Positions 32,749 to 48,176 of a DNA stretch of 64,000 bases are shown piece after piece. The notes beneath the pieces were generated by a model. It saw only the letters and a program-made list of their open reading frames with translations, ran no database searches and was not told where the DNA came from. The position numbers were made by a program, and so were the translations under genes. Each line of letters starts with the position of its first letter. The first letter of the stretch is position 1. This DNA comes from Candidatus Parcubacteria bacterium (GTDB lineage Bacteria > Patescibacteriota > Patescibacteriia > Patescibacteriales > UBA12075), in contig PKTK01000001.1 of the NCBI GenBank assembly GCA_002869165.1, forward strand, positions 29,006 through 93,005, read 5' to 3'.

Positions 32749-32758
32749 GGAGGCTATC

Positions 32759-33778
32759 ATGAAACTAAGAACTGTTATAATCGGATTAGGAAAGCAAATA
32801 GTTGAAGACCATTTGCCCGCGGCAGTAGAGAGTGAAAACTATGAAGTATTGGCAGTATGCGATACAAACCCTGAAAGAGTCAATGCTTGTTGCGAAAAAT
32901 TTCATCTCGAAGGTTTTTCGGATATTGATTCCATGCTTCAAAAGATTAAATGTGATGTTGCTATCGTTGCGGTCCCTCATAATCAGTATCTTCCTGTAAT
33001 TACTAAATTAACTGAAAAAGGAATTCACGTAATTAAAGAAAAGCCTTTTTCAACTTGTCGTGAAGAAGCCCTTATGATTCATCGGTTAGTTTCTGAAAAA
33101 AAACTTTTTCTTGGGGTAACTCTTCAAAGAAGATTCAATCCAATTTTCCAAGCCTTTCATCAGCTCAAAAAAAGGATTGGAAAAATTTATTCGATTGAAG
33201 GTTCTTATGTTATGAACATTGCTCATCTTGATGAGGGTTGGAGAGCATCAAAAGATTTCGCTGGTGGTGGCGTTTTGATTGACATGGGATATCACTTCGT
33301 AGATTTGCTGGTTTGGTATATGGGCCTACCAACAAGTGTAACCGCCCGACTTTCCAGAGGAAATCGTATTGGGCAGAAATATGATGTTGAGGATACAGTC
33401 AATTTACTTTTTGATTACTCGACGGGTAATCATGACGAAAAGGTAGTTGGGAATTTTATTATTTCCAGAGTGTATCCGCAAAAATCCGAAAAACTCACAG
33501 TCCTGGGTTCAAAAGGTATTATCGCAATCGAAAGAGGGAAAATCCAAAGACTAGATGCCAATGGAAATGAAATTGAGACTTTGGAAAGGAAAGGTGGATG
33601 GCCTTCAGCAGCTATTGACCAACTGGACTATTTTGCTGATATTATCAAAAGTAGACAGTTTGCTGGAGTTTATGATTATCGTGAACATTTCAAACACATT
33701 GCGATAATTGATGCTGCCTATGAATCTGACAAGAAGTCCATTTCTTGCAACCCGAGTGATTTTTTAATCACAGAATAA
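32759..33778 (+). CDS. Gfo/Idh/MocA-family NAD(P)-dependent oxidoreductase
   Basis: N-terminal Rossmann VIIGLGKQ, an EKP motif (VIKEKPF), and a C-terminal alpha/beta domain. RBS aaggagg upstream. Confidence 0.85.
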   Translation: MKLRTVIIGLGKQIVEDHLPAAVESENYEVLAVCDTNPERVNACCEKFHLEGFSDIDSMLQKIKCDVAIVAVPHNQYLPVITKLTEKGIHVIKEKPFSTCREEALMIHRLVSEKKLFLGVTLQRRFNPIFQAFHQLKKRIGKIYSIEGSYVMNIAHLDEGWRASKDFAGGGVLIDMGYHFVDLLVWYMGLPTSVTARLSRGNRIGQKYDVEDTVNLLFDYSTGNHDEKVVGNFIISRVYPQKSEKLTVLGSKGIIAIERGKIQRLDANGNEIETLERKGGWPSAAIDQLDYFADIIKSRQFAGVYDYREHFKHIAIIDAAYESDKKSISCNPSDFLITE

Positions 33779-33798
33779 TTCCGACTAGGAGATACATC

Positions 33799-35058
33799 AT
33801 GAAATATAAACTTGCATTATTTGGTGGTCAAAAAACAATTTTGCCAGAAAAGGCAAGATTTAATTGGCCAGTTATTACTGACGAGGTTGAGGCTGTGGTT
33901 ATGAAACAGCTTCATGAAAGTGTTTCAATCTATAATCGTTCTGGGATATTTGAAGAATTTGAAAACAATTTCGCCGATTACCATGGCAGAAAAAAGGGAT
34001 TGCTTTTCAATTCGGGAACCAGCGCGATTTATTCAATGTTCGAGGGTATTGGGCTCGGACCAGGTGATGAGGTTATTTGTCCTACATATACTTTATTTGC
34101 AACAGTCAGTCCTATGATGATGACTGGTGCGAGGCCAGTATTTTGTGATTGTCGGGAAGATGGAAATATCAATCCTGACGAAATAGTTAAAAAAATTACA
34201 GCGAAAACAAAAGCTGTGATTGTCACTCATATGTGGGGCATTCCTTGCCAAATGGATGTCATTAGTGAAATATGTTCACAGCATAAGCTTGCCTTGCTTG
34301 AGGACTGTTCGCATGCGCATGGTGCATCATATCAGGGCAGGAAAGTTGGTACATTCGGTAGTGCTGCCGCGTGGAGTTTGCAAGGTCAAAAAATAATCTC
34401 TGGTGGTGAAGGCGGTATTATGTTAACTGATACAGACAGCATATATAATCGTGCTTTGCTTCTTGGTCATTACAACAAGAGATGTAAACAGGAGATTCCG
34501 GAGAGTTTTCAGCTCTCTGGTTTTTCTCAGACTGGTTTTGGACAGAAGTTCAGAGCGCACCCTTTGGCTATTGCTATGGCAAATCAACAATTTTCACATC
34601 TTGATGAATGGGTTTGCCAGAAGTCACAATTTGCTAAACAGTATATTGCGGAACTTGGGAGTTGCAGATTTTTAACAATGCCACAATTTCATGATTCTCA
34701 GCCGAGTTGGTATGCCTTTGTTATGCAGTATAATGAGGCCAGCGCAAATGGAGTAAAAATCGAAAAGTTTGTCGAGGCTTTGCAAGCTGAGGGTTTAAGT
34801 GAAGTGGATATGCCAGGTTCGACTTGTCCTATCCATAATCTTCCGCTTTTCGTAGCTCCTGAGCAGGTATTTCCAAGGTTGTACGAGAATAAGCAGACCA
34901 ACATCTCTGACTTCCCGATTGCTGAAAAATTTTATAATTTGGCAATCAAGATACCTGTCTGGGCATTTCCGCAAGACGCCGAAGTGGTAGTTGCATATAT
35001 CAAGGGTTTTCAAAAAGTGATAAGCGTTGTTGAAAATGAACCAAAGACGCTTACTTAA
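33799..35058 (+). CDS. DegT/DnrJ/EryC1/StrS-family PLP-dependent aminotransferase
   Basis: LLEDCSHAHGA...AWSLQGQKIISGGEGG (catalytic Lys region). Confidence 0.85.
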   Translation: MKYKLALFGGQKTILPEKARFNWPVITDEVEAVVMKQLHESVSIYNRSGIFEEFENNFADYHGRKKGLLFNSGTSAIYSMFEGIGLGPGDEVICPTYTLFATVSPMMMTGARPVFCDCREDGNINPDEIVKKITAKTKAVIVTHMWGIPCQMDVISEICSQHKLALLEDCSHAHGASYQGRKVGTFGSAAAWSLQGQKIISGGEGGIMLTDTDSIYNRALLLGHYNKRCKQEIPESFQLSGFSQTGFGQKFRAHPLAIAMANQQFSHLDEWVCQKSQFAKQYIAELGSCRFLTMPQFHDSQPSWYAFVMQYNEASANGVKIEKFVEALQAEGLSEVDMPGSTCPIHNLPLFVAPEQVFPRLYENKQTNISDFPIAEKFYNLAIKIPVWAFPQDAEVVVAYIKGFQKVISVVENEPKTLT

Positions 35059-35126
35059 TCAGGGCATAGGTTTACTTCTCCGAAAAATGATGATATATTG
35101 AGTCCAAGATAAATAAGGAGATAAAT

Positions 35127-35588
35127 ATGCCAAATAAAATAAAACCTGGCTTAGTCGAAGAGCTAAATAGAAAGCTGAAGGAAGATGGAATCCAAAAGGT
35201 AGTTGTGGGTGGTATTGTTTTTTCGGGAGAAAAAGAAGTGCTCTTGCTTGAAAGATTGCCAAACGAATTCAAAGATAGTCTAGTTGAACTTCCCAGTGGC
35301 ACTATTGAGACAGGGGAATCAATTGAAGATGCTTTGCATCGAGAGGTAAAAGAGGAAACTGGACTTGAAGTGTTGGATATTATTAAGTATGTCGGCTATT
35401 TTGACTACTTATCTTCGTCAGGGAAAAAAGTAAGACAGTTGAATTTTGTAATAAGTGTTAATTCTGACGATGTTAAAGTTAACCCCACTGAGCATGTGCG
35501 CTTTTTACGTGTTAATCCCAACAACCAAGAATTTCAATTACTAAACATTTCTAATGAAACAAAGGAGGTAATACTTAATTGTTTATAA
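35127..35588 (+). CDS. Nudix hydrolase (second copy, last gene of the operon)
   Basis: Nudix box GTIETGESIEDALHREVKEETGL. RBS aaggag upstream. Confidence 0.85.
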   Translation: MPNKIKPGLVEELNRKLKEDGIQKVVVGGIVFSGEKEVLLLERLPNEFKDSLVELPSGTIETGESIEDALHREVKEETGLEVLDIIKYVGYFDYLSSSGKKVRQLNFVISVNSDDVKVNPTEHVRFLRVNPNNQEFQLLNISNETKEVILNCL

Positions 35589-35677: not shown

Positions 35678-35818
35678 ATTTCCAGTCCAGAATCATCCGT
35701 TCAATCTGGTTCCACTCAAAATTAAGCGTGCGTGCATATTAAAAAATCTGCTGATGTCAGCAGATTTTTTGTGTTCGCGAGAGGTGGCAATGGAACACTT
35801 CTGTGTTATGATAATGAT
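35678..35818 (+). repeat. Intergenic module R1 (conserved ~65 nt, tctgctga/tcagcaga hairpin with T-run, ~45-nt conserved tail)
   Basis: Aligns with 36361-36500, sharing atttccagtc, gttcca, cgtg.gtgcatat, the hairpin, and caatggaacactt.tgtg. Confidence 0.7.
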
Positions 35819-36337
35819 ATGTTAACAAAAAAACAAAAAGAATGGATCAATCTTCTTTCAGATGATGATGAAGTTGAAATTATTCCGTACGATAAAAGAA
35901 GCAAGGAAATATTTAAAAGAGTGAAAGAAGAGATTAAAATCAATATTGGTGATGAAACAAGAGTGGAGGAGCGTGGGTCTACTAGTCTTGGTATTGCAGG
36001 ACAAAATGAGATTGATGTCTATGTTCCGATATCGCCTGATATTTTTTATTCAAAAACGCTGGTTCCAGAATTAACCAAGATATACGGTTTGCCTAAGAGC
36101 ATTCATAAAACAAGAATACGTTTTCAATTCATTGATGACGGGAAAAAGATTGATATATTTCTAATTGACGAAGAAAGTGCTGAATGGATAAATGGAGTGA
36201 AATTTGAAAACTATTTAAAAACTCATCAAGAGGCCTTGAAAGAGTATAAAAAATTAAAACACGCCTGTAATGGGCTTTCTACAAGAAAGTTTTATGAGAA
36301 AAAAGTAGCATTTATAAATGATATTTTATCTCGTTAA
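35819..36337 (+). CDS. GrpB-like nucleotidyltransferase-fold protein
   Basis: ERGSTSLGIAGQNEIDVYV and FENYLKTHQEALKEYKKLK resemble GrpB/UPF0157. The track start at 35732 runs through the hairpin, so the start is taken at MLTKKQ. Confidence 0.55.
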   Translation: MLTKKQKEWINLLSDDDEVEIIPYDKRSKEIFKRVKEEIKINIGDETRVEERGSTSLGIAGQNEIDVYVPISPDIFYSKTLVPELTKIYGLPKSIHKTRIRFQFIDDGKKIDIFLIDEESAEWINGVKFENYLKTHQEALKEYKKLKHACNGLSTRKFYEKKVAFINDILSR

Positions 36338-36360: not shown

Positions 36361-36500
36361 ATTTCCAGTCTAATATTATTCTTTCTAAATAGTTCCAACT
36401 AAACATACTATCGTGTGCATATAAAAAAATCTGCTGACATCAGCAGATTTTTTGTGTTCGAGATAGATGACAATGGAACACTTTTGTGATAATATTTAGA
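36361..36500 (+). repeat. Intergenic module R2
   Basis: See R1. The hairpin is at 36423-36453. Confidence 0.7.
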
Positions 36501-36519
36501 TATAATATATATTTTATAT

Positions 36520-37725
36520 ATGAAGAATAATTTTGAAATAATTAATCAAGAAGCTGATAGAAGGAGGAAAAAAGCTGAGAATGAAAATAAATTGAGTATT
36601 TCTCACTGGAAGGGGGAATTGCACTCGCACACAAAAACTGACATTAGTAAGCCTGAATTACCAAATGATATTGTTGAACATCGAAAGGGGAGTAATTGTG
36701 GCAGTATACCACTTGAGGCGCTTTTAAGTTACCATAATCAGGAAATGAAGAATGAATTTATTGCTATTACAGAACATTCTCGTGATGGAAATACAGAGAA
36801 AGCAATAAATGGGATGACTGATTGGTTTATGGGAATGTATTTAAGTAATGTCATCTGGCTTCAGGAAAATTTTTCAAAAAATAAAGAAAGTTTATCTGAA
36901 GATGATTTAGAAAAAATAAAAAAAACAGCAAATGAAAAAGCTAAAGAAGTTGCGCTGTATGGTGATGAACGAATACAAGTGATATTAAATGATATAGAAA
37001 AAGTCTCTAAATCCACAGATATAAAAGTTTTTAAGGGTGTCGAGGCAAGTTTGATGCCCGATGGAAGTTTGGATACTGAGATGGTTGAAAGAGGAGAGTT
37101 TGATATGGTGAACTGTTCGATACATCCAGATATTGATAAAGAAAAATTTCAGCCGATCATTAGTAGTTCTGAAAAATACTCAGATCTAATTTTAAAAGGA
37201 ACAGAGAATGAAAAAGTGAATATTTTGTCTCATATTGGAAGTGGTCTTAGCAAGGGAGTGGCTGAAAATTTAAGATGGGGAGAATTTGCGGAAAAAGCCA
37301 TAAAAAACAAAGTCGCAATTGAGATTAATTTAAAGAAATTGATAACATTTATTTATGAAGAGGTATTAGATTATGAAAAATATCCCAAGGACAGCATAGA
37401 GTATAGAGAAGTGTTACAGTCTAAGCTAAGAGAATTAATACCTATACTGAGCTCAGAAAATATACGAAATCAGTTAAAGCCATATTTTTCACAAGGCTTG
37501 AAAATCGCCATTAACACCGATGAGCATAAAAATAAATTTATTGATTCAACTACCGATAAGAAAGGCACAGAATACAGTTTTAAACCAAGAGATTTGAGAT
37601 TTTGGAGATCAATGAAAATAGTTGAAGAATATTTTAATAAAATATTTTCTGAGTTGGGAGTCAAAAAAGAAAATATTATAAATACATTTACAAAAGAAGA
37701 ACTAGAGGAGTTTTTTAAGAAATAG
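36520..37725 (+). CDS. PHP-domain-like phosphoesterase
   Basis: WKGELHSHTKTD at the N-terminus (PHP motif I), with later His/Asp clusters (ITEHS, NCSIHPD, NTDEH). Confidence 0.5.
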   Translation: MKNNFEIINQEADRRRKKAENENKLSISHWKGELHSHTKTDISKPELPNDIVEHRKGSNCGSIPLEALLSYHNQEMKNEFIAITEHSRDGNTEKAINGMTDWFMGMYLSNVIWLQENFSKNKESLSEDDLEKIKKTANEKAKEVALYGDERIQVILNDIEKVSKSTDIKVFKGVEASLMPDGSLDTEMVERGEFDMVNCSIHPDIDKEKFQPIISSSEKYSDLILKGTENEKVNILSHIGSGLSKGVAENLRWGEFAEKAIKNKVAIEINLKKLITFIYEEVLDYEKYPKDSIEYREVLQSKLRELIPILSSENIRNQLKPYFSQGLKIAINTDEHKNKFIDSTTDKKGTEYSFKPRDLRFWRSMKIVEEYFNKIFSELGVKKENIINTFTKEELEEFFKK

Positions 37726-37768
37726 TATTTGAAATATTTTGAATATTATACTTCCATAGCGGTATAAA

Positions 37769-37807
37769 TTTCTCTAAATAGTTCCAAGTAAATATACTAT
37801 CGTGTGC
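37769..37807 (+). repeat. Intergenic module R3 (partial, no hairpin)
   Basis: tttctctaaatagttccaagtaaatatactatcgtgtgc matches about 85% of 36380-36418. Confidence 0.6.
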
Positions 37808-38366
37808 GGGTGAAAAACGATTTAATATTAGGTAAGTTTTTTATTGGAGGAGAATGTGAATAGTATTATTTCAAAAAATTTGATATAATATAAGTATGGT
37901 AATAGACATAGAATTAACAGTAAATCGTTTTGGATTTGGTAAAATTAATGAGAATAAATTTCAGTTTTTTTTTCTTCGCTTTTCCAAATGGCAAGTCCCA
38001 GGCAAACATTCCATTTCATTTGAAATAAATTGGCGGGATAAAAAATAATATAACCAAGTTTATCTTACATGGTGGCGAGAAAGACACTCTCAATAAATAA
38101 AATGAAGCATTTTTATATAGGAATTCGAATAGCTTAACCTGATAGAATATTTAAGACAAAAAAAATTGAATTGAATTTTTGTGCGATTTATAAAACCAGT
38201 TAGTCAAGAAAGATCATAGAAAATTTATTTAAAAATAATAAATTACAAATATTATTTAGAATTTGGCGGATTAGTTGCTTTTAAAATTTTTTGTTTTGTA
38301 AATATTAAAAAAAATGTTATAATATAAATATAATAAATTTTATAAATTTTAATATTTAAAAAAAAT

Positions 38367-39356: not shown

Positions 39357-39524
39357 ATGGGACAAGCATTAAATAATTATTTTCTTAAAGCAAAGGAAAA
39401 GGGTGGTTTGCAAGCACAAGTTAAGTTAGCCATGATTACAAAGATGAGTAGTGATGACGCAATACAAGCCCCTGATTCTGAAGAAAATATCAAGCTTTTT
39501 GAAGATGCTATAAAAAAAATCTAG
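39357..39524 (+). CDS. 55-aa helical small protein (not in the track), in the same frame as 38367..39338
   Basis: MGQALNNYFLKAKEKGGLQAQVKLAMITKMSSDDAIQAPDSEENIKLFEDAIKKI. Confidence 0.35.
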   Translation: MGQALNNYFLKAKEKGGLQAQVKLAMITKMSSDDAIQAPDSEENIKLFEDAIKKI

Positions 39525-40065
39525 ACCTTTTGTTTTCTTAGTGATAAGGATATTTAGTATATTAAAAATATCAACTAATTATGGTTGATATTTTTTTTAT
39601 AAAAAATAGGGTTAGGAGCTGATAATTTATAAAGATTACATCTATCCTTTTTTACTTTATTAGATATTTGTTATAAGTTTGGTTCTAATAATATTCTCTA
39701 TTTCGTAGGTATATAAATTTTATTTGATTTACTAAATTCAGTTCTAAGCTTCTCTACGAGCTCTTGCGGAAAAAAAATTACAGCTAAAATAGTTTTGATT
39801 TTGTTATAAATTATTGTAAGTCCAAGTTTTATTGTTATCTAGATTAAAAATTCACAATGGGAAAACCCACAAAAAACTGCTATAATTATAATATAATAAT
39901 AAAACTATATAGAAGAAAAAAGATATTCTAAAGGCAGGGCTAGTAAATATATAAGTGACTGTCTGCGGGATTTTTTGAGTGTAATAAAGGAGGAAGAATT
40001 TTGTTTTTAGCTAGTACAGATGAGGCAATAAACATGTTAAGTAAATAATTATTAATTGAATATAT

Positions 40066-40908
40066 ATGAAAAAAACGTTTTTATTTCTATTTATTACTGC
40101 TGTTATACCTATGATGGCTGCTTGTTCTGTCTCCGTTATTTTAACTCCAGACGAAGAAATCCAAAAAGCAGTCAAAGAAAATGATCCGAGTATTTGTGCC
40201 AAGATAGAGGATGAAGATCAGGGCAAGACTCAAAAAAGAAGGGATCGTTGTTATGAGGAGATTGCCATAGAATATAATAACCCGATGAACTGTATGGAGA
40301 TCCAAGATCAGGCCAGGCAAGATAATTGTGACAAGGCTATTGCTATTACCAACAAAGAGCCGGATCTATGTGAAGTTATTGATGATGTTTGGAAAAAGAA
40401 TGATTGCTTTATGCAGGTTGCCGAGGTAAAAGAAGACCCATTGATTTGCGGGAAGATAGATGATAACAACAGAAACAAGAGTATGTGTTATTCTAAAGTA
40501 GCTGTTGCTAGGAAGAATCAGGAAATTTGCGGAAACATAGATAAAGAGTCTGAAAAATTGGGTTGTATTGCGGATGTAGCAAGTGTAAAAGAAGATTTGG
40601 AGCTATGCGAAACATTGAAAGAATATGATTCAACGTATTATTCATGTACCTCGGCCATTGCTAGTAAGCAAAATAATCCTGATCTTTGTAATAATCTGGC
40701 GGTTACCAAATCTAGAAACTATAAGAACGCTTGTTTTGAAGATACAGCTATAATGGCCAAGGATTACAAAACTTGTGAACTTATAGAGGACACTGATGAC
40801 CGTGACTCTTGTTTGAGTAAAATCGGAAGGAACAACAAAATCCCAGAAGCTTGTGAGAAAATAACTGATGAAAAAAGGAAGGAGATCTGTTCGCGTTTGG
40901 CTAAATAG
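40066..40908 (+). CDS. Lipoprotein built of ~35-aa two-Cys repeats (family member A)
   Basis: Lipobox MMAAC. Repeats DPxxCxxIxDxxxxxxC(Y/F)xxxAxxxxD. Confidence 0.75.
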   Translation: MKKTFLFLFITAVIPMMAACSVSVILTPDEEIQKAVKENDPSICAKIEDEDQGKTQKRRDRCYEEIAIEYNNPMNCMEIQDQARQDNCDKAIAITNKEPDLCEVIDDVWKKNDCFMQVAEVKEDPLICGKIDDNNRNKSMCYSKVAVARKNQEICGNIDKESEKLGCIADVASVKEDLELCETLKEYDSTYYSCTSAIASKQNNPDLCNNLAVTKSRNYKNACFEDTAIMAKDYKTCELIEDTDDRDSCLSKIGRNNKIPEACEKITDEKRKEICSRLAK

Positions 40909-40996
40909 TCTTTATAAAAAACTCTTTACTATCTTTGCAGTCTAGAGAGATATGTGAGTTTGTATTAAAAAATATCGAATTTCTTTAGAAAATTGA

Positions 40997-41025
40997 TTGA
41001 CTTATAAGTCTTGCGGGTGTAGAAT
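40997..41025 (+). promoter_or_regulatory. Promoter of leader copy 1
   Basis: TTGACT, 17-nt spacer, TAGAAT. Confidence 0.55.
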
Positions 41026-41048
41026 AGAGGCGTAAATAAAATAAATTT

Positions 41049-41096
41049 ATGTTTAATAAACCTCTAATCCACATCGTTAAAAATACTAAGGACTAA
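41049..41096 (+). CDS. 15-codon leader ORF, copy 1 (MFNKPLIHIVKNTKD)
   Basis: Same length, frame and stop as copy 2 at 46919. The stop lies 5 nt before the terminator stem. No obvious SD. Confidence 0.4.
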   Translation: MFNKPLIHIVKNTKD

Positions 41097-41101
41097 CAAG
41101 T

Positions 41102-41129
41102 GGCCGCCTTTTTTTGGGCGGTTTTTTTT
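41102..41129 (+). terminator. Intrinsic terminator/attenuator after leader copy 1
   Basis: ggccgcc / ggcgg(tt) stem followed by T8. Confidence 0.7.
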
Positions 41130-41188
41130 ATTATTAGGAAAATAGATTTATATATTTATGCTAATAAAAAATTATTAATTGAACATAT

Positions 41189-42334
41189 ATGAAAAAAATA
41201 TTTTTGATTTTATTTATAATTATTTTCATGCCTTTGCTTTCGGGCTGTTCACTACTTGATTTTTTCTATGATCAGGAAGTGCAGGAGAAGGTCAATACTG
41301 GAGATCCGAGTAGTTGTAAAGATTTGGAGACTGGTGAACAGCAGAGTAATTGCTATGGAGATATTGCCGAGGACAAAGATGATATTAGGGTTTGTGGGAT
41401 GATGGATCGGGACTATGATCAGGATGAATGTCGGTTTAAGATTATCAAGAAACAGTCTGATCCAGATATGTGTTCAAATCTGGTGACAGTCAGGAGCAAT
41501 GCCGATTGTTACTTTTATTTTGCTCAAGAAAATGAAGATGATAAATTGTGTGATCTGATTGCAGGAGATGACACCAAGGCTGGAGAATGTTTCAAAGGTA
41601 TTGCGCTTAAGAAAAATGATGAAAAAATTTGTTTGGGTATCGTGAAACCTTATCTTCTCAAGAGCTGTGTTATGAGTATTGCCTTGAACAAAAAGGATTC
41701 TAAGATTTGTGAAAATATTGAAAATGAATATGACAGGGAGACTTGTATCAAAAGAGTAGCAGAAGAAGCCGGAGATATCACAGCATGTGCGAAACTGAAT
41801 AATCAAGATGCCAAAGACGAGTGTATCTTGTCCTTCGCTACCAAATTCAACGATGATGATATGTGCGAAGAGATCAAAAATAAGATCACCAAGGATCAGT
41901 GCTGGTTCAAAGTAGCGAGGGATATAGGGGACGAAAGTATTTGTGATAGGATGATTGACGATGGGCAGGCAATAGGATGTTTTAGTGCTTTGGCAAAAGT
42001 GAAAAATAATATAGAGCTTTGCTTCGAGATCGATCAGTCCAATAATATGTTCGGCGCTTGTGTAGAGGAGATAGCGAAGCTCAACAAAGACTCAAAATAT
42101 TGCAACGAAATCAAAGACGATAAAGTTGCTTATGGGTGTTATTATAAAACAGCTCTGGAAGCTGGTGATGCAAGTCATTGTCAGTGGATAGAGAGTAACG
42201 GGACTAGAGACAAGTGCTATCACAATGTAGCCGTGACCAAAAAAGATACAGCAGTGTGTATCAATATCCAGGACGAGCATGAGAAGAATAATTGTGAAAA
42301 CTATACGGAGCTCAATGAGTTGCAGGGCAATTAG
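41189..42334 (+). CDS. Two-Cys-repeat lipoprotein (family member B)
   Basis: Lipobox LLSGC. Ten or so repeats of the same motif. Confidence 0.75.
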   Translation: MKKIFLILFIIIFMPLLSGCSLLDFFYDQEVQEKVNTGDPSSCKDLETGEQQSNCYGDIAEDKDDIRVCGMMDRDYDQDECRFKIIKKQSDPDMCSNLVTVRSNADCYFYFAQENEDDKLCDLIAGDDTKAGECFKGIALKKNDEKICLGIVKPYLLKSCVMSIALNKKDSKICENIENEYDRETCIKRVAEEAGDITACAKLNNQDAKDECILSFATKFNDDDMCEEIKNKITKDQCWFKVARDIGDESICDRMIDDGQAIGCFSALAKVKNNIELCFEIDQSNNMFGACVEEIAKLNKDSKYCNEIKDDKVAYGCYYKTALEAGDASHCQWIESNGTRDKCYHNVAVTKKDTAVCINIQDEHEKNNCENYTELNELQGN

Positions 42335-42377
42335 TAAAAAGGGATGCTAAATTTATACTAGTATATAATTTAAAATT

Positions 42378-44615
42378 ATGAAAAATAAATCTGGAAGTAA
42401 AAAAATATCAATTGGCTTGATTGTTTTGCTCTTTATTATTTCTTTTGGACCAAGACAGCTTAGTGCTTTGAGTTTTGAAAAAAAAGAGACAGTCATAAGC
42501 CCAATTGAATTTGATACCAAGAAGGATTTACTTCCAATTTTGCCGGAAGAGGAAGAGGAAACACCCGGGATCAAGGTGATAGCCACATCAACTACAAATA
42601 CTGAGGAGGAAGAGGTGAGCGATGAAAGAGACAGGACAAATGAAACCGAGACTGGAGTGAGCGAAGAATTGATTATTCCTAGTGCTGGCCTAGGCACAAA
42701 AATTGACAAAGATGAAAGCCCTGAAGTGACAGAGGAGATACCTCCACTTGATTTGAATGAATATGAGAAAGTAGAGAATTTAAATAAAGATGATGATGAC
42801 AAGAATAACGAAGGCCTTGGTCTTGTGGAGCCAGAAGATAGTAAGGAAATAGAAGTGAGTGAGAGTGCCAAGCAGATTGATGTTAGTAAAATACTAGAAG
42901 ATGTTGGAGCGAAACTGGAGGTGTGTAATCTTGATAATGGTTGTTCGGGGGATATGGGAGTAAATCATTGGATGATGGAGGCAGAAATTTATAATGACGA
43001 TAAGAAAAAAGAATTTAGATTTGCAACAGATGACGCAGAAATAAAGCAAGGTATATTACAAATATCATATTTTTCATTTGCTACTGAAAATCCACAGATC
43101 ATATATAGCGGTGCTATAGATAGAGGGGTAAATAATTTTGATTTTGGTATTTTGTCTTCTTCTAATGTCCTAGATGATAAGATAAAAGATGAGCTAAAAA
43201 GTAACACAGCTACGGTAGCAGTGGAGATTGAAACGAAGGAGAAGTCTAGTACTATATCAAAAATAAAGAATTTTTTTAGCAAAATATTTTCTTTTATCAA
43301 TAAGTCCTTCAAAAAAATTAACAATTTCTTTAGTGAGGCAAAGCCGGTTTTAGAACAAAAGAGTCCAATAGGAGACATGGTATATAATACTTACTATTTG
43401 AGGGTAATGCCAGTTAAGGATTCTGTAGTGGCTGGTAAGGCTAGTAATGAAGTTAAAGTATCACTCAAAGAACGACCCGAGCAGGCGGACGTTGAGATAT
43501 TTACTCCAGCCAAGTTGTATGAAGTAAAAATCATAGACTTCAAACCAATCAGAGCTTCTGAGCCTGGAGTTTGCAACGGTGCCATGATACTTGATACTGA
43601 CTGGGATGAATATACGGGAACTACTGTTATCAAACACAAAGCAGGAGAAAGGATTTGTCCCAAGGGCTACAAGGGGATAGGTGAACAGGCTTGGTATGAG
43701 TCACTGTGGAATTTTGCAAAGTCAGGGATGAACTGGGTTTCTGAGGCTTACAATCAACTCAAAGCATCTGTTGTGGATGGACTTGCTGGACTGGCCTGTG
43801 GCGGGGACGATGATTGTCGGATGGCAATCAGCGCCGGACTTGATATTGGTCTCGCGGCCATGGGTGTGCCACCAAGTATTACAAATTTTGATGAATTGGT
43901 TGATGGTGGTTTTGACTATCTTGCAGCTGAGATCGCATCACAAGCCGGATGTCCTGACGTGGTTTGTAAGGAAAAAATCAAAAACGAACTTAGAAATATA
44001 TTGGAAAAGCAAAAAAATACCAATCCAAATTGTAAAGGAGAAGAGGAGGCTCACAATGATGGGCTAGAACCACTATTTTTACCAGCTGGAGTAAAGGCAC
44101 ACCTTGATCCTTTGGGGACATATAGACAGGCTGAGATTACCTTGGAAGTAACTAGGACAGAAGCAGATGGTTCAAGCCTAATGGGAGCTCCTTATAAGTT
44201 GCAGTTAAACAATTATGCCTACAATGATGGACTGATCGGTTCCTCCATACACAATATTCCTCCCTACGGAGCCAGCGTGGAAATCACCAAAGCCCTGGAG
44301 GGAAAAATGTTTGAATCAAAAACTATTATACTTACTGAAATGCAAAAAGGTGAGAAGATGAACATCCCTATCTTGCTTACACCTAGCGAGTATTGGATAC
44401 CAGAGCACAAAGAAGCAATGCAAGGCTGGTCTACTGTTACCTACAAGGACGGTATCCCTCAGTATCAGTACGACGACTGGTGGAAATTTTATTATGAAGC
44501 TAGTCTAAGTTTTGGTGCCTACATAGACGGATGTTTGGAAAACTACGGAGCTTCTGACTGTATCATAAGCTCAGATTATTTGAGTGTGGATCTGCCAGGT
44601 ACTCTCAATCCATAA
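42378..44615 (+). CDS. 745-aa secreted/anchored protein, no recognisable domain
   Basis: N-terminal hydrophobic segment, an acidic linker, and a Cys-containing C-terminal half. Starts 43 nt after 41189..42334. Confidence 0.65.
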   Translation: MKNKSGSKKISIGLIVLLFIISFGPRQLSALSFEKKETVISPIEFDTKKDLLPILPEEEEETPGIKVIATSTTNTEEEEVSDERDRTNETETGVSEELIIPSAGLGTKIDKDESPEVTEEIPPLDLNEYEKVENLNKDDDDKNNEGLGLVEPEDSKEIEVSESAKQIDVSKILEDVGAKLEVCNLDNGCSGDMGVNHWMMEAEIYNDDKKKEFRFATDDAEIKQGILQISYFSFATENPQIIYSGAIDRGVNNFDFGILSSSNVLDDKIKDELKSNTATVAVEIETKEKSSTISKIKNFFSKIFSFINKSFKKINNFFSEAKPVLEQKSPIGDMVYNTYYLRVMPVKDSVVAGKASNEVKVSLKERPEQADVEIFTPAKLYEVKIIDFKPIRASEPGVCNGAMILDTDWDEYTGTTVIKHKAGERICPKGYKGIGEQAWYESLWNFAKSGMNWVSEAYNQLKASVVDGLAGLACGGDDDCRMAISAGLDIGLAAMGVPPSITNFDELVDGGFDYLAAEIASQAGCPDVVCKEKIKNELRNILEKQKNTNPNCKGEEEAHNDGLEPLFLPAGVKAHLDPLGTYRQAEITLEVTRTEADGSSLMGAPYKLQLNNYAYNDGLIGSSIHNIPPYGASVEITKALEGKMFESKTIILTEMQKGEKMNIPILLTPSEYWIPEHKEAMQGWSTVTYKDGIPQYQYDDWWKFYYEASLSFGAYIDGCLENYGASDCIISSDYLSVDLPGTLNP

Positions 44616-44673
44616 AAAAATAAATCTTCAAAAGACTAAAGTTGATAAAAATATATTAAATAATATTAATAAT

Positions 44674-44859
44674 ATGAAAAAACAAATGCCCGGTTTTGTG
44701 CCGGTAAAATTTAATAAAGTAGGTAAATTTCTCTTGTTTCTGGCTGCTGGCTTGGTGGTGGTCGGAGTAGCTAGGCAATTTTATCCCTTGGTTTATATCG
44801 GCCTAGCTTTGGGTTTGCTTGCTTTGTATCTTATCTATGTTGTGCCGCGTGAAAAATAG
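44674..44859 (+). CDS. Small two-TM membrane protein
   Basis: MKKQMPGFVPVKFNKVGKFLLFLAAGLVVVGV...LGLLALYLIYVV. Start trimmed from the track ORF. Confidence 0.45.
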   Translation: MKKQMPGFVPVKFNKVGKFLLFLAAGLVVVGVARQFYPLVYIGLALGLLALYLIYVVPREK

Positions 44860-44906
44860 ATAAACTTAGATAAATAACTTAGAATAAAATTTCTCATGTA
44901 TATATT

Positions 44907-44935
44907 AAAATCTGCTGATATTAGCAGATTTTTTT
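44907..44935 (+). terminator. Terminator hairpin of the tctgct...agcaga type (third copy)
   Basis: aaaatctgctgatattagcagattttttt. Confidence 0.7.
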
Positions 44936-44965
44936 GTTAGCTAGAGTAGGGAATCGAGCTTAGTC

Positions 44966-45019
44966 TTGACAAAATGTAAAAAATACTTTACACTGATAAA
45001 TGTAAGGTATTTTTTACAT
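44966..45019 (+). promoter_or_regulatory. Promoter plus 13-bp inverted repeat (operator candidate) upstream of the DUF2178/HTH operon
   Basis: TTGACA at 44966. atgtaaaaaatac at 44974 pairs with gtattttttacat at 45007. Confidence 0.5.
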
Positions 45020-45034
45020 TAAATATTAAAAAAT

Positions 45035-45430
45035 ATGAATTATAAACAATATCAAATTATTAGAACATTAATTGGACTTTTGATTGCCACAATAGTTATG
45101 ATGGCAACCATTATAAATAATTTTCAATTAGCCCTGACTGGGATATTTATTGGAATTTTGTTTCTTTTTCTGGCCAAGAGCAAATTCAAAAAAGTAGTGG
45201 TAGATGAGAGAGTAATATCAGTTAGCGGAAAAGCAAGTCGAGCGACTTACTCTATCGTGACCATGTTTTTGGCATTCTTTGGACTCTTTTCAATATTTAC
45301 CGCCCGTGGACACGAAGACCTTTATCTTGAATCGCTTGGCATTGTATTTTGTTATATTTCTTTGCTTCTGATTACGGTTTATTCACTTTCTTATCATTAT
45401 TTCAATAAAAAATATGGGGCAGATGAATAA
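45035..45430 (+). CDS. DUF2178-like membrane protein
   Basis: Four TM helices. The classic arrangement is next to a small HTH regulator. Confidence 0.55.
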   Translation: MNYKQYQIIRTLIGLLIATIVMMATIINNFQLALTGIFIGILFLFLAKSKFKKVVVDERVISVSGKASRATYSIVTMFLAFFGLFSIFTARGHEDLYLESLGIVFCYISLLLITVYSLSYHYFNKKYGADE

Positions 45431-45617
45431 CAGAATAAAAAAATTTAGATCTGAGCATGATATGACCCAGGAAGAATTGGCAAATAAGTGCGACGTGACC
45501 AGACAAACTATAATAGCAGTTGAGAAAAATAAATATATTCCTTCTTTGGAATTGGCTTTTAAGATTGCTCTTATTTTTGATCAGCCAATTGAAAAAATTT
45601 TTATATATAATAAGTAA
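45414..45617 (+). CDS. XRE/Cro-type HTH transcriptional regulator (YozG-like)
   Basis: MTQEELANKCDVTRQTIIAVEKNKYIPSLELAFKIA. Confidence 0.85.
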   Translation: MGQMNNRIKKFRSEHDMTQEELANKCDVTRQTIIAVEKNKYIPSLELAFKIALIFDQPIEKIFIYNK

Positions 45618-45626
45618 AACAATAAT

Positions 45627-46034
45627 ATGGAAACCAAAACCTACAATATGAAATCCCATGCCAAATATAGATTTGTAATTGGTGGACTGTCTTTGTTATC
45701 AGGAATAATTCTTTTAATAACAAACCCGGGCTTAACATTGGGTAATATAATGATCCCAAATACTCTAGTCACATTGGGGATAATCCTGATTGCATTCGGA
45801 TTTAGAGGATATTTTTTTGTAAAAGAAATTAAATATGACGAACGAACTCAAATTATTGCTCTAAGGTCTTCAAAAGCGGTTTTATTAATAATAATCTATG
45901 CAGCTATGATAGCAATGCTAGCTGGCACAGTTCAAAAGATCCAAGTGGACTTGGCAACAGCTTCCGCAATAATCCTCTTTGGAACCATTATAAGCCACAA
46001 ACTTTTTCATATATATTATGACAAAAGAAACTAA
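45627..46034 (+). CDS. DUF2178-like membrane protein (second copy)
   Basis: Four TM helices, paralogous layout. Confidence 0.55.
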   Translation: METKTYNMKSHAKYRFVIGGLSLLSGIILLITNPGLTLGNIMIPNTLVTLGIILIAFGFRGYFFVKEIKYDERTQIIALRSSKAVLLIIIYAAMIAMLAGTVQKIQVDLATASAIILFGTIISHKLFHIYYDKRN

Positions 46035-46058
46035 TAAAAATTTTAATAGATTAATTAT

Positions 46059-46499
46059 ATGCGCAGTAAAACAAATGTCCTAGGGGTAAATAAAAGATTA
46101 TTTATTTACTTAGTCGGGATTGCTTTAACATTTTGTATCTTCATATTTCTTTTAAGCATCAATTTGATCGGCTATAGCGTAAAAGAAAAATGTAAAATTG
46201 CTCAAGATAAATACGCGGGCGATTGTGTGGAATCTTTGATTAGCTATCTGGATGATGAAAAAAATGGATATTATTCCCGTAATTCAGCAATTTGGGCACT
46301 TGGTCAATTGGGAGACGAGCGAGCAATGCCAGTCCTAAATAAATATCACACAGGCTATAATGGCGAAGTAATTAATAGAAGCGAAGCCTTGTCTCAATTA
46401 GAAATTGAAAGAGCGATTGGGTATATGGAAGGTAATTTAAATATAACAAAATTTTTTTGGTTGACTGAGGATGATATTGCCAGTAAAAAATCTGAATAA
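46059..46499 (+). CDS. Membrane-anchored HEAT-repeat protein
   Basis: N-terminal TM segment and the AIWALGQLGDERAMPVL HEAT/PBS-lyase-like repeat. Confidence 0.55.
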   Translation: MRSKTNVLGVNKRLFIYLVGIALTFCIFIFLLSINLIGYSVKEKCKIAQDKYAGDCVESLISYLDDEKNGYYSRNSAIWALGQLGDERAMPVLNKYHTGYNGEVINRSEALSQLEIERAIGYMEGNLNITKFFWLTEDDIASKKSE

Positions 46500-46663
46500 T
46501 GAGTAACTTTAAAAAGAAATAATTTTTATTTGTGTAATATTTTTATTCAATAATAATATTACAATTAATTGTATTTAAATATCCACTCGGTGTAATATTT
46601 AGCATTGCGAATGCCAACCTGATACCATTTAAAACTATTTTTGCTTGTATCAGGAAAACAACC

Positions 46664-46701
46664 AAGGCCAGGCCTCAAACCCTTTCGAGGCCTGGCCTTT
46701 T
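46664..46701 (+). terminator. GC-rich 13-bp-arm hairpin
   Basis: aaggccaggcctc / gaggcctggcctt followed by tttt. Confidence 0.5.
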
Positions 46702-46866
46702 GACAGTCTAGATTATGAACGCATCATCTACTAGCTTCAAGTCTGGATAGCAGAAATATACATTTAAATGTATATTTCTTTTTGGTTTGATAAATAATAG
46801 AGAAAATTGCATAATAAGTGTTTTGTTAGTGTTTGGGTAATTCTTGTCTAAAAAGGCCCATAAATA

Positions 46867-46895
46867 TTGACTATTTTATTGACTTGCTGTAAAAT
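46867..46895 (+). promoter_or_regulatory. Promoter of leader copy 2
   Basis: TTGACT, 17-nt spacer, TAAAAT. Confidence 0.55.
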
Positions 46896-46918
46896 AGAGG
46901 CGTATATTAAATAAAAAC

Positions 46919-46966
46919 ATGCTTAATAAAATTTTAATCTACATCGTCAAAAACCCTAACGACTAA
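46919..46966 (+). CDS. 15-codon leader ORF, copy 2 (MLNKILIYIVKNPND)
   Basis: See copy 1. Confidence 0.4.
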   Translation: MLNKILIYIVKNPND

Positions 46967-46971
46967 CAAGC

Positions 46972-46997
46972 GGCCGCCTATTTTGGGCGGTTTTTTT
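46972..46997 (+). terminator. Intrinsic terminator/attenuator after leader copy 2
   Basis: ggccgcc / ggcgg(tt) stem followed by T7. The PAAR gene starts 10 nt later. Confidence 0.7.
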
Positions 46998-47006
46998 ATT
47001 AAAACT

Positions 47007-48176
47007 ATGCCAAATACACACACTACTAAGAATACAGCACACATCTTAATCATATTTCTGTTTGCCATCTTCTTGAGCGGTTGTGGTATGTTCGACTTTT
47101 TAGATGCTGAGATGAACAAGGCTATAGAGAAGAAAAATCCAAAGTTGTGCTTGAAAATGACAGAAGACCAGGCTAGAAGAGAAAGATGCTTGAGTGCAGT
47201 AGCTGAGGTCAAAGAGGACGCGAGTGTTTGTGACATGATAGAGACAGAAAACGAAAAGGATAAGTGCTTCTCGGGCATTGCGATTAAAAAAGAAGATGCA
47301 AATATTTGCGGTAGTATATCGGGAGATAATAGAAAAGGGTCATGCTACAGCCAAATTGCTAAGAGCTCACAAAACGAAGAGCTTTGCGAAAAGATCCCAG
47401 GCAAAAGTATGGTCGGGGATTGCTTCCAGAGTATCGCTGTAGAGAAAAATGATGAAAATATTTGTGCACGGATCAAGGACACATTTTCTGGTCCTCGATG
47501 TTTCGTATTGCTAGCAAAGCAAAAAGTGGATGTATCAATTTGTGACAAGATCGAAGGTCGGGACTCTCATGTGAGTGACTGTATCCAGGGAGTAGCAGAG
47601 CAGAAGAACGACGAATCACTTTGCGCGCAAATAGAGAAATCAACTTACAGCGATAGTTGCTACGCCAGCTTAGCCTCGCTAAAACAGGACGCCTCGATAT
47701 GTGCTAGTATCGAACAAGAGAGAAAAAGAAATTCTTGTTATGAAAACCTCGAAGCTAGCCCCGAGGCTCTAGCAGAAGAAGAACAGGCTGAAGAAGAGGG
47801 AGATGAAAAATACGGCATCATCGAAAAGGACGGGAAAGTGTATATAAAATCAAAACCTGGAGAGGTTCTCAGTATAAGTAGCAGTGATTTGCCAGACTGG
47901 GCAAATGCCCAAATGGTAGTGGTGGGGGCAAGTGCTGTTTGTGTTGGCCCACCAAGTACAATTAGCTCGGGAGACTCCAATGTTCTTCTCAATGGACTGC
48001 CAGTAGCGAGAAAAGGCGATGAAACTTCTCACGGAGGGAGTATAACAGAGGGTTCTGACAAAATATTTATAAACGGAGTCCCAGCCGCCTTTGTCGGCGC
48101 ACAAACAGTCTGCCCCATGGTAAGCCCAGGCCCAGTCCCGCATGTGGGTGGACCTATATCAAATAATGGTTATTAA
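47007..48176 (+). CDS. Two-Cys-repeat lipoprotein with a C-terminal PAAR-like domain (family member C)
   Basis: Lipobox FLSGC, then the same Cys repeats, then an acidic linker. The C-terminus reads VCVGPPSTISSGDSNVLLNGLPVARKGDETSHGGSITEGSDKIFINGVPAAFVGAQTVCP. The track start at 46983 lies inside the terminator. Confidence 0.75.
   Translation: MPNTHTTKNTAHILIIFLFAIFLSGCGMFDFLDAEMNKAIEKKNPKLCLKMTEDQARRERCLSAVAEVKEDASVCDMIETENEKDKCFSGIAIKKEDANICGSISGDNRKGSCYSQIAKSSQNEELCEKIPGKSMVGDCFQSIAVEKNDENICARIKDTFSGPRCFVLLAKQKVDVSICDKIEGRDSHVSDCIQGVAEQKNDESLCAQIEKSTYSDSCYASLASLKQDASICASIEQERKRNSCYENLEASPEALAEEEQAEEEGDEKYGIIEKDGKVYIKSKPGEVLSISSSDLPDWANAQMVVVGASAVCVGPPSTISSGDSNVLLNGLPVARKGDETSHGGSITEGSDKIFINGVPAAFVGAQTVCPMVSPGPVPHVGGPISNNGY

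What the first reader, a model, noticed from the sequence alone, without database searches (positions are those of the whole stretch)
40997..41129. Conserved promoter, 15-codon leader ORF and terminator unit present twice, upstream of two Cys-repeat lipoprotein genes
Regions 40997-41129 and 46867-46997 align over about 130 nt. Each has TTGACT-17-TA(G/A)AAT, then a 15-codon ORF (MFNKPLIHIVKNTKD versus MLNKILIYIVKNPND), then TAA, then 5 nt later a ggccgcc/ggcgg terminator with a T-run, then the lipoprotein gene. ORF length, frame and stop are preserved. Of the eight nucleotide differences within the ORF, three are synonymous. A ribosome at the stop codon would cover the 5' arm of the terminator. 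This is therefore the geometry of a translation-coupled attenuator (tnaC/erm-leader-like logic), or alternatively a small secreted or regulatory peptide or an sRNA gene. No SD is visible, which weakens the coding interpretation.
Basis: seen in the sequence. Interest (0 to 1): 0.6.

Follow-up and report, generated by a model that had tools for sequence, protein, structure and literature searches.

The report
Duplicated promoter–leader–terminator module before lipoprotein genes
Two lipoprotein genes of an uncultured Parcubacteria bacterium are each preceded by the same ~135-base module (promoter, 15-codon mini-gene, transcription stop signal); it most likely acts as a switch that decides whether transcription continues into the gene, but it occurs only in this one organism and the mechanism cannot be settled from sequence alone.

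Summary
Positions 40997-41129 and 46867-46997 share TTGACT-17-TA(G/A)AAT, a 15-codon ATG...TAA ORF, and 5 nt later a GC-rich hairpin (about -13 kcal/mol) with a 7-8 T run. The stretch from the -10 box to the T-run is 81-82% identical. The promoter spacer (5/17) and the flanks (22%) are at the random level (28%).

A covariance model finds only these two copies in the window. It finds none in 30 related loci, and collection scans found none either. The source is a Candidatus Parcubacteria MAG. The closest homologues of the lipoprotein genes elsewhere lack the module, and Rfam has no match.

Neither copy has another sigma-70-like promoter before its lipoprotein gene. In copy B the ATG lies 10 nt after the T-run, so that gene must be expressed by read-through. 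This favours a cis-acting attenuator.

The evidence for the ORF is mixed:
- A complete ORF this long appears in only 2.4% of shuffled leaders.
- Nine random substitutions would keep it intact in about 20% of trials.
- Substitutions fall 5/1/3 by codon position, and the amino-acid identity is what neutral change predicts, so the peptide itself is not under selection.
- The missing SD is uninformative, because about 85% of genes here lack one.

Best guess (about 0.4): a pyrE-like attenuator in which a ribosome masks the terminator. The main rival (about 0.3) is a trans-acting sRNA gene. Interest is modest.

The parts
40997..41025 (+). Copy A promoter: -35 TTGACT (40997-41002), 17-nt spacer, -10 TAGAAT (41020-41025)
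   Evidence: 10/12 match; the only sigma-70-like site in 40900-41200. The -35 is 6/6 and the -10 is 5/6 identical to copy B, while the spacer is 5/17.
41026..41048 (+). Copy A discriminator and 5' leader. AGAGGCG follows the -10. The transcription start is inferred near 41032-41034. An A/U-rich stretch runs up to the ATG.
   Evidence: 18/23 identical to copy B. The start site is inferred from the usual -10 to +1 distance and was not measured.
41049..41096 (+). Copy A 15-codon ORF MFNKPLIHIVKNTKD, stop TAA at 41094-41096
41102..41129 (+). Copy A intrinsic terminator: GGCCGCC-U-rich loop-GGGCGG stem (8 pairs, 5 GC) followed by T8
   Evidence: Hairpin -13.0 kcal/mol, z = -3.0.
41189..42334 (+). 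Downstream gene A: Cys-repeat lipoprotein (lipobox LLSGC), 381 aa
   Evidence: family alignment, 26 invariant columns, mostly Cys. No Pfam hit.
46867..46895 (+). Copy B promoter: -35 TTGACT (46867-46872), 17-nt spacer, -10 TAAAAT (46890-46895). A second TTGACT lies at 46879.
46896..46918 (+). Copy B discriminator and 5' leader
46919..46966 (+). Copy B 15-codon ORF MLNKILIYIVKNPND, stop TAA at 46964-46966
46972..46997 (+). Copy B intrinsic terminator: 9-pair stem (5 GC), 3-nt loop, T7
   Evidence: Hairpin -12.7 kcal/mol.
47007..48176 (+). Downstream gene B: Cys-repeat lipoprotein (lipobox FLSGC) with a C-terminal PAAR domain, 389 aa. The ATG is 10 nt after the T-run.
   Evidence: P0001 is 100% identical to its C-terminal 255 aa (Candidatus Parcubacteria bacterium, C0583_00325). 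The gene call 16942-18111 in L029 corresponds to window 47007-48176.

Best explanation
Each copy is a self-contained, promoter-proximal attenuator placed in front of a Cys-repeat lipoprotein gene.

Proposed mechanism:
1. Transcription starts a few bases after the conserved -10 box.
2. It runs through an unstructured A/U-rich leader of about 70 nt and meets a strong intrinsic terminator.
3. By default a terminated RNA of roughly 95 nt is made. The lipoprotein gene is expressed only by polymerases that read through.
4. Read-through is most likely set by translation of the 15-codon leader ORF. Its stop codon lies 5 nt before the hairpin. A ribosome that has kept pace with RNA polymerase and sits on the stop codon covers or unwinds the 5' arm (GGCCGCC) and prevents hairpin formation. 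A lagging or absent ribosome lets the terminator form.

This is the logic of the E. coli rph-pyrE and pyrBI attenuators. It needs no antiterminator helix.

Shown here: the conserved promoter hexamers, leader, ORF and terminator; the absence of another promoter; and the 10-nt gap in copy B.

Inferred: the transcription start site, termination efficiency, translation of the ORF, ribosome occlusion, and whatever signal is being sensed.

Probabilities: about 0.4 for a cis-acting attenuator of any kind, and about 0.25 for the ribosome-occlusion version specifically.
For: - Conservation follows the outline of a transcription unit. The -35 is 6/6 and the -10 is 5/6. The transcribed part is about 80% identical through to the T-run. 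The spacer is 5/17 and the upstream flank 22%, both at the random level of 28%.
- The hairpins are about -13 kcal/mol and are followed by T8 or T7.
- The module's own promoter is the only sigma-70-like site in the 300 nt before gene A. No such site lies between terminator and ATG in either copy.
- In copy B the ATG at 47007 is 10 nt after the T-run. It is the only in-frame start that gives a signal peptide with a lipobox.
- The ORF length, frame and stop, and the 5-nt distance from stop to stem, are identical in both copies.
- A complete ATG ORF of at least 15 codons occurs in 2.4% of shuffled leaders. Nine random substitutions leave it intact in about 20% of trials.
- Most genes here initiate without an SD, from A/T-rich upstream sequence like that before the leader ATG.
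- Precedent: moving the rph stop codon relative to the pyrE attenuator loop changes pyrE expression (PMC2784333).
Against: - There are only two copies, in one organism, so no covariation or codon-level test has any power.
- All three codon positions are about equally conserved (differences 5/1/3). This fits nucleotide-level constraint or a recent copy, and it gives no positive sign of translation.
- No conserved alternative structure exists. The whole-leader folds differ between the copies and are not better than shuffles (z = -1.4 and -0.5).
- Homologous lipoprotein genes in other genomes have no such leader.
- No physiological signal is apparent for lipoprotein or PAAR genes.
- Elsewhere in the window a gene start can follow a terminator within 30 nt (52215-52231 before the ATG at 52261). 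Close spacing alone is therefore not special.
- The ORF statistics are post hoc.
Confidence: 0.4

Rival explanations
1. Two paralogous genes for a trans-acting small RNA of roughly 95 nt. Each has its own promoter and a Rho-independent terminator. The unstructured, conserved body would pair with target mRNAs. The position next to lipoprotein genes would be incidental, or the lipoprotein genes would simply use terminator leakage.
For: - Discrete promoter-to-terminator conservation and strong terminators.
- Equal conservation at all codon positions, and amino-acid identity no higher than neutral expectation. This is what a non-coding RNA predicts.
- This lineage carries another conserved small promoter-to-terminator element without an ORF (class 2). 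Such RNA genes are therefore plausible here.
Against: - Copy B leaves no room for a separate promoter for its lipoprotein gene, and copy A has none detectable.
- A scan of 49 translation-initiation regions in the window found no pairing better than shuffled controls. The three lipoprotein genes were not among the top hits. This covers only about 10% of the genome.
- A 15-codon ORF ending 5 nt before the stem in both copies would then be coincidence (2.4% x about 20%).
Confidence: 0.3
2. A cis-acting attenuator that does not depend on translation. A sequence-specific single-stranded-RNA-binding protein, or another factor, would bind the conserved unstructured leader and promote or block termination. 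The ORF would be fortuitous.
For: - Nucleotide-level conservation of an unstructured leader at all codon positions.
- UAA triplets are about twice as frequent as composition predicts, and six are shared between the copies (read directly from the sequence).
- A CUAAC direct repeat lies just before the terminator in copy B.
- No riboswitch-like fold, and no Rfam match.
Against: - No regular repeat spacing of the TRAP or HutP kind.
- No candidate regulator gene identified next to either copy.
- This reading does not explain why the ORF is retained or where its stop sits.
Confidence: 0.12
3. A gene for a functional 15-residue peptide (secreted, regulatory or toxic) whose sequence matters.
For: - The ORF is present and retained in both copies.
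- The start context resembles ordinary genes of this genome.
- Shared core N-K-x-L-I-[HY]-I-V-K-N.
Against: - Five of 15 residues differ, including P/I and T/P.
- Differences fall 5/1/3 by codon position. An identity of 10/15 is reached in 32% of neutral simulations.
- No signal sequence and no hydrophobic span.
- No homologue could be sought, because the peptide is too short for the protein tools.
Confidence: 0.05
4. No dedicated regulatory function. An ordinary promoter and a terminator-like hairpin were copied from one paralogue's upstream region to the other by gene conversion or duplication and are drifting.
For: - 18% divergence spread evenly, with no codon bias.
- The module is absent from orthologues in other genomes, which suggests a recent, lineage-specific origin.
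Against: - The conserved block ends exactly at the -35 box and at the T-run, with random sequence outside it and in the spacer.
- The genes downstream are only 28-29% identical in protein, so the module was not carried along by a recent gene duplication.
- A strong terminator between a promoter and its only gene is costly unless it is used.
Confidence: 0.08

Closest known systems
E. coli rph-pyrE and pyrBI attenuators (transcription-translation coupling, UTP-sensitive)
   Same: - A translated ORF ends at or just before an intrinsic terminator that precedes the regulated gene.
- The leading ribosome itself prevents hairpin formation, so no antiterminator helix is required.
- The distance from stop codon to hairpin is critical (PMC2784333; the rest is established knowledge).
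- Here the stop lies 5 nt before the stem, and the hairpin loop is U-rich.
   Different: - The upstream ORF here is a 15-codon mini-ORF. In pyrE it is a full gene (rph), and in pyrBI a 44-codon leader that runs through the terminator.
- No U-rich pause tract precedes the hairpin.
- The regulated genes are lipoproteins, one with a PAAR domain, and not pyrimidine genes.
- Nothing has been shown experimentally.
Classical leader-peptide attenuators (trpL, hisL, pheL, ilv/leu leaders)
   Same: - Promoter, then a leader ORF of about 15 codons, then an intrinsic terminator, then the structural gene.
- pheL also has 15 codons (from memory).
   Different: - No conserved 1:2 / 2:3 / 3:4 alternative pairings.
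- No run of codons for a single amino acid.
- The downstream genes are not biosynthetic.
Ligand-dependent arrest-peptide leaders (ermCL, tnaC and similar)
   Same: A short upstream ORF whose ribosome controls downstream expression.
   Different: - Those systems act through a defined arrest motif. The output is a change in mRNA structure around the SD (erm) or blocked Rho loading (tnaC).
- Here there is no SD to unmask, no known arrest motif, and the terminator is intrinsic.
sRNAs made by premature termination in 5' leaders, and stand-alone Rho-independent sRNA genes
   Same: Own promoter, an unstructured conserved body, and a terminal GC hairpin with a U-tail. The predicted product is roughly 95 nt.
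   Different: - No target complementarity found.
- No Rfam family.
- A retained ORF ends at the hairpin.

Membership tests
Leader-peptide (trp-type) transcription attenuator | Short ORF between the promoter and an intrinsic terminator, upstream of the regulated gene | tested here: met
   a 15-codon ORF, then the terminator, then the lipoprotein gene, in both copies.
Leader-peptide (trp-type) transcription attenuator | Mutually exclusive antiterminator / anti-antiterminator helices that overlap the ORF | tested here: not met
   apart from the terminator, the predicted helices differ between the copies. For example, AGAGG:CCUCU forms in A only. The folds are not better than shuffles (z = -1.4 and -0.5).
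Leader-peptide (trp-type) transcription attenuator | Regulatory codons (a run of codons for the sensed amino acid) and a cognate biosynthetic operon downstream | tested here: not met
   The peptides MFNKPLIHIVKNTKD and MLNKILIYIVKNPND contain no such run. The downstream genes are lipoproteins.
pyrE/pyrBI-type coupling attenuator | The upstream ORF's stop lies close enough to the hairpin for a terminating ribosome to mask the 5' arm | tested here: met
   The stop ends 5 nt before the stem in both copies. That a ribosome reaches about 12-15 nt 3' of the A site is established knowledge and was not tested here.
pyrE/pyrBI-type coupling attenuator | Nucleotide-sensitive polymerase pausing (U-rich tract) before the terminator, and pyrimidine genes downstream | tested here: not met
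   The leader before the hairpin is A-rich. Only the hairpin loop is U-rich (U7 in A, UAUUUU in B). The downstream genes are unrelated to pyrimidine synthesis.
pyrE/pyrBI-type coupling attenuator | Read-through depends on translation of the upstream ORF | not testable with these tools
   Needs start and stop mutants in a coupled transcription-translation or reporter assay.
Trans-acting sRNA gene | Own promoter and Rho-independent terminator | tested here: met
Trans-acting sRNA gene | Complementarity to target mRNAs beyond chance | tested here: inconclusive
   the best duplex energies against 49 initiation regions are no better than for shuffled RNAs (21/30 and 29/30 shuffles do at least as well). 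Only about 10% of the genome was available.
Riboswitch or any Rfam family | Match to a curated covariance model, or a conserved aptamer fold | tested here: not met
   Searches (gathering thresholds, whole window; E <= 5, 39500-47100) gave no match at either copy. No conserved fold.
Patescibacteria 'class 2' small element (AGTTCTAAC-N7-ACGA-N-CCCGTGC plus terminator) | Detectable sequence homology to that element | tested here: not met
   an nhmmer profile of 30 class-2 copies recovers its two window copies (E = 8.5e-17 and 8.6e-11) and does not report 41020-41130 or 46890-46998 among the listed hits (E up to about 63); the module's model scores the class-2 copy at only 18 bits (E = 0.49).

The most novel reading that the evidence does not exclude
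A portable 'attenuator cassette' (promoter, mini-ORF, terminator) that a genome-reduced Parcubacteria symbiont has installed in front of different surface and attack genes: a Cys-repeat lipoprotein and a PAAR-tipped lipoprotein. It would couple their expression to the cell's transcription-translation coupling or nucleotide status. An example would be UTP-sensitive pausing in the U-rich hairpin loop of an organism that must scavenge nucleotides from a host. This would be the first described ribosome-mediated attenuator in the Candidate Phyla Radiation, and an antiterminator-free design outside pyrimidine metabolism.
Probability: 0.15. Interest if true: 0.6.

Novelty: new member of a known kind. 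Interest (0 to 1): 0.35.

Why it matters
Almost nothing is known about gene regulation in Patescibacteria (CPR). They are uncultured, have tiny genomes and, in this window, mostly lack Shine-Dalgarno sites. Full-text searches found no paper combining Patescibacteria with leader peptides and attenuation, and none combining Parcubacteria, PAAR and lipoprotein.

A conserved module running exactly from promoter to terminator is a concrete, experimentally tractable candidate for a regulatory element in such an organism. It is about 135 nt long and could be tested in vitro or in a surrogate host. It sits in front of genes that plausibly mediate contact with or attack on a host.

If it works by ribosome occlusion, it would show that coupling-based attenuation operates in CPR without SD-led initiation. 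If it is only an sRNA or a drifting duplicate, the finding is of local interest.

Tried and rejected
1. **Looking for more copies.**
   - Pattern searches in the window with mismatches found nothing beyond the two copies.
   - Covariance model R1, run with filters off on the window, scored the two copies at 143 and 136 bits and the next hit at 25.6 bits. It found no copy in 30 fetched loci. The two best weak hits were aligned and are unrelated.
   - Exact-pattern scans: metagenome contigs gave 23 hits, all chance matches in GC-rich DNA. Genome contigs gave 0 hits. Viral contigs gave 0 hits in three scans.
   - The source genome is not in the scanned DNA collections. Its 584,723-bp contig could not be read beyond the window. 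Look-ups of three window proteins (745 aa at 42378-44615, 281 aa at 62675-63520, 383 aa at 2532-3683) found no record.
2. **Orthologous comparison.**
   - Other assemblies of the same organism (L029-L031) are nearly identical and have no SNP in either module.
   - The nearest homologues of the 47007 gene (61-62% and 39-40% identity) have other upstream sequences.
   - The 381-aa lipoprotein gave no database hit on its own.
3. **Homology to the 'class 2' element** found upstream of the third paralogue. The idea came from a shared TTAATAAA..TCTAA stretch. The profile search rejected it.
4. **Riboswitch or known RNA family**: rejected.
5. **sRNA targets in the window**: nothing above shuffles (an earlier run, timed out).
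6. **An 'AATAAA' translation-initiation motif** shared by the leader ORF and real genes: not enriched beyond AT-richness (16% against 11%).
7. **A boxA-like reading of CUAACAAG and a mini-ykkC reading of ACGA loops**: considered from memory and dropped, because the flanking consensus is absent.
8. **In-frame fusion of the leader ORF with the lipoprotein gene**: excluded. The starts are 88 nt apart in copy B, which is not a multiple of three.

Full report
**What is there.** The window is bacterial. It carries rpoB and a split rpoC at 7-6521, is about 34% GC, and comes from an uncultured Candidatus Parcubacteria bacterium. The C-terminal 255 residues of the protein encoded at 47007-48176 are 100% identical to NCBI protein C0583_00325, which sits on a 584,723-bp contig. 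The same organism also occurs in three other assemblies.

Each has these elements:
- TTGACT, a 17-nt spacer, and TAGAAT (A) or TAAAAT (B).
- The conserved sequence AGAGGCGTA.
- An A/U-rich stretch.
- An ATG ORF of 15 codons ending in TAA.
- Five further bases.
- A GGCCGCC/GGGCGG hairpin of about -13 kcal/mol.
- A run of 8 (A) or 7 (B) T.

The only corrections are that the ORF has nine nucleotide differences in eight codons, and that gene B also ends in a PAAR domain.

**It is not chance, and it has the outline of a transcription unit.** Segment-by-segment identities:

| Segment | Identity between copies |
|---|---|
| 100 nt upstream | 22% |
| -35 hexamer | 6/6 |
| Promoter spacer | 5/17 |
| -10 hexamer | 5/6 |
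| 5' leader | 18/23 |
| ORF | 39/48 |
| 5' arm of the hairpin | 7/7 |

Random 100-nt pairs from the window average 27.7%. After the T-run, similarity stops within a few bases. The proteins encoded downstream are only 28-29% identical. The module was therefore not carried along by a recent gene duplication. Either it is under constraint, or it was copied as a discrete unit.

Copy B has two TTGACT hexamers 12 nt apart (46867 and 46879). This could reflect repair of promoter spacing after an indel. That is an inference only.

**How widespread it is.** A covariance model built from the two copies scores them at 143 and 136 bits. Nothing else in the window exceeds 25.6 bits with filters off.
- It finds nothing in five loci carrying homologous lipoprotein genes, or in 25 Patescibacteria loci.
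- Exact-pattern scans of the metagenome, genome and viral collections returned only chance hits or none.
- The closest homologues of gene B (61-62% identity, L027 and L028) and more distant ones (39-40%, L024 and L026) have different upstream regions.
- Rfam has no match at curated thresholds or at E <= 5.

As far as public data show, the module is specific to this organism. This means that no comparative test (covariation, dN/dS) has any power.

**Cis or trans?** In the 300 nt upstream of gene A, the module's promoter is the only sigma-70-like site. In copy B no such site lies between the terminator and the ATG. The ATG at 47007 is 10 nt after the T-run. It is the only start that yields a signal peptide with a lipobox, and an independent gene call in L029 agrees with it. 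Gene B must therefore be transcribed through the terminator, and gene A probably is too. This is the main argument for a cis-acting attenuator over a stand-alone sRNA gene.

One caution applies. In this compact genome another gene starts 30 nt after the terminator of the gene before it (52215-52231 before the ATG at 52261). Terminator read-through may therefore be common here.

**Is the ORF used?**

For:
- A complete ATG ORF of at least 15 codons appears in only 2.4% of shuffled leaders. Nine random substitutions would keep it intact in about 20% of trials.
- Its stop sits 5 nt before the stem in both copies.
- The missing SD is not evidence against translation. Only about 7 of 50 ORF starts in the window have an SD-like motif at a plausible distance. 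The sequence before the leader ATG looks like the sequence before ordinary genes, although no specific motif is enriched beyond AT-richness.

Against:
- The differences fall 5/1/3 on codon positions 1/2/3.
- Five of 15 residues differ, including P/I and T/P.
- An identity of 10/15 or better arises in 32% of neutral simulations.

The peptide sequence is therefore not under detectable selection. If the ORF matters, what matters is that it is translated. These statistics are post hoc and rest on two sequences.

**Structure.** Apart from the terminator, the predicted folds of the two leaders differ and are not better than shuffles. No conserved antiterminator exists, so a trp-type or erm-type mechanism is not supported and a riboswitch is unlikely.

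**Most likely mechanism.** With the stop codon in the A site, a ribosome protects roughly 12-15 nt downstream (established knowledge). That covers the GGCCGCC arm at +6 to +12 nt from the stop. When polymerase reaches the end of the T-run it is about 36-38 nt from the ribosomal P site, which is about the spacing of a closely coupled ribosome and polymerase (from memory, not tested). A tightly coupled ribosome would therefore block the hairpin and allow read-through. An uncoupled one would allow termination.

This matches the rph-pyrE and pyrBI attenuators, where the position of the upstream stop codon relative to the attenuator loop sets pyrE expression (PMC2784333). The signal being sensed is unknown. 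The U-rich hairpin loop invites a UTP-pausing idea, but nothing supports it.

I put a cis-acting attenuator of any kind at about 0.4, and this ribosome version at about 0.25.

**Rivals.**
- A trans-acting sRNA (about 0.3) explains the equal conservation of all codon positions. The lineage also has another ORF-less small promoter-to-terminator element. However, this reading leaves gene B without a promoter, and a target scan of 49 initiation regions found nothing above shuffles.
- A factor-dependent attenuator that does not use translation: about 0.12.
- A functional peptide: about 0.05.
- A drifting, functionless duplicate: about 0.08.

**The second element.** While fetching homologues I found a different conserved element upstream of the third paralogue (40066) and upstream of the L027, L028 and L035 homologues.
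- Its core is AGTTCTAAC-N7-ACGA-N-CCCGTGC, followed by a terminator of variable sequence.
- A genome scan found it in 25 stretches of Patescibacteria MAGs from several candidate phyla. It has no Rfam match.
- It has no detectable homology to the module studied here, so it does not serve as the 'ORF-less homologue' that would refute coding.

**Verdict.** This is a real, non-random, lineage-specific promoter-leader-terminator module. It is best read as a new member of the attenuator class, with the sRNA reading still open. Interest is modest (0.35). It is a neat, testable regulatory candidate in a poorly understood phylum, but it has only two copies in one uncultured genome, and its logic has clear precedents.

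Noticed in passing
window 20614-20725 (+) and 39694-39790 (+); L027 1560-1662; L028 1150-1222; L032-L056: A conserved 28-nt core, AGTTCTAAC-N7-ACGA-N-CCCGTGC, followed by a terminator hairpin of variable sequence and a T-run. In one subset a TTGG-N-ATATAAAT promoter-like box lies about 30 nt upstream. It occurs in 25 stretches of Patescibacteria MAGs (Moraniibacteriota, Falkowbacteria, Portnoybacteria, Parcubacteria and others). It has no Rfam match and no ATG ORF in the copies read (L027 and the 39694 copy). It is often a few kb downstream of tRNA-Trp on the same strand. It is a candidate unannotated CPR small RNA of about 80-130 nt..
   Followed up: partly
window 39878-40065: The third Cys-repeat lipoprotein paralogue (40066-40908) has a different upstream arrangement. 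It has TGCTATAAT near 39878 and a weak hairpin with a T-run at about 39942-39976. It then has a 15-codon TTG ORF (40001-40048, MFLASTDEAINMLSK if TTG is read as Met) behind a strong SD (AAAGGAGG, 39986-39993, 7-nt spacing). SDs are rare in this genome. The last 25 nt before the ATG and the signal peptide are 76% identical to those of gene 41189 (family D10).
   Followed up: partly
window 40066-40908, 41189-42334, 47007-48176; P0002-P0007, P0018, P0070-P0087: A family of lipoproteins with a repeated motif of about 36 residues (...C..I....(D)...C....A...D...C) and interchangeable C-terminal modules. The C-terminus is a PAAR domain in gene B and in P0004-P0007, and an unrelated ~250-aa domain in P0002 and P0003. 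Pfam has no model for the repeat region. Hits come from CPR and some 'archaeon' MAGs. The architecture resembles a polymorphic toxin. NCBI annotates gene B only from residue 135 onwards (P0001), and gene A gave no database hit.
   Followed up: partly
window 35678-35820, 36361-36503, 37739-37817, 44897-44934: A second family of conserved intergenic modules (76% identity over about 140 nt). It ends in the hairpin AAATCTGCTGAYRTYAGCAGATTT with T-runs on both strands. It lies downstream of the genes at 35127-35588, 35732-36337 and 36520-37725, and before the gene at 45035 (families D4, D5 and D12).
   Followed up: partly
window 13711-13741, 52997-53027, 60593-60623: A repeated short palindromic element, (A/G)GATTCCTnnCTyCGCAGGAATGACA, in intergenic positions. 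One copy lies directly before the ATG at 60626 (families D16 and D18).
   Followed up: no
window, all ORF starts; operon 32089-35588: About 85% of ORF starts lack any SD-like motif and are preceded by A/T-rich sequence, with T at -1 in 31 of 49. The four genes at 32089-35588 all have strong AGGAG sites at -12 to -9. These four are a thymidylate kinase, a GFO/IDH/MocA oxidoreductase, a DegT-type aminotransferase and a NUDIX protein. The contrast may mean a foreign origin or a different expression mode.
   Followed up: no
window 2532-3683 and 3729-6521: The RNA polymerase beta' subunit appears to be split into two ORFs separated by 45 nt. Only the second ORF (3729-6521) was scanned against Pfam, and it matches Rpb1 domains 2-5. 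The first ORF (2532-3683) was not scanned.
   Followed up: no
window versus L029, L030, L031: The window differs from three other assemblies of the same organism at 11-15 sites per 20.8 kb. Most are C/A or G/T differences in which the window carries A or T. This looks more like damage or error in one assembly than like real polymorphism.
   Followed up: no
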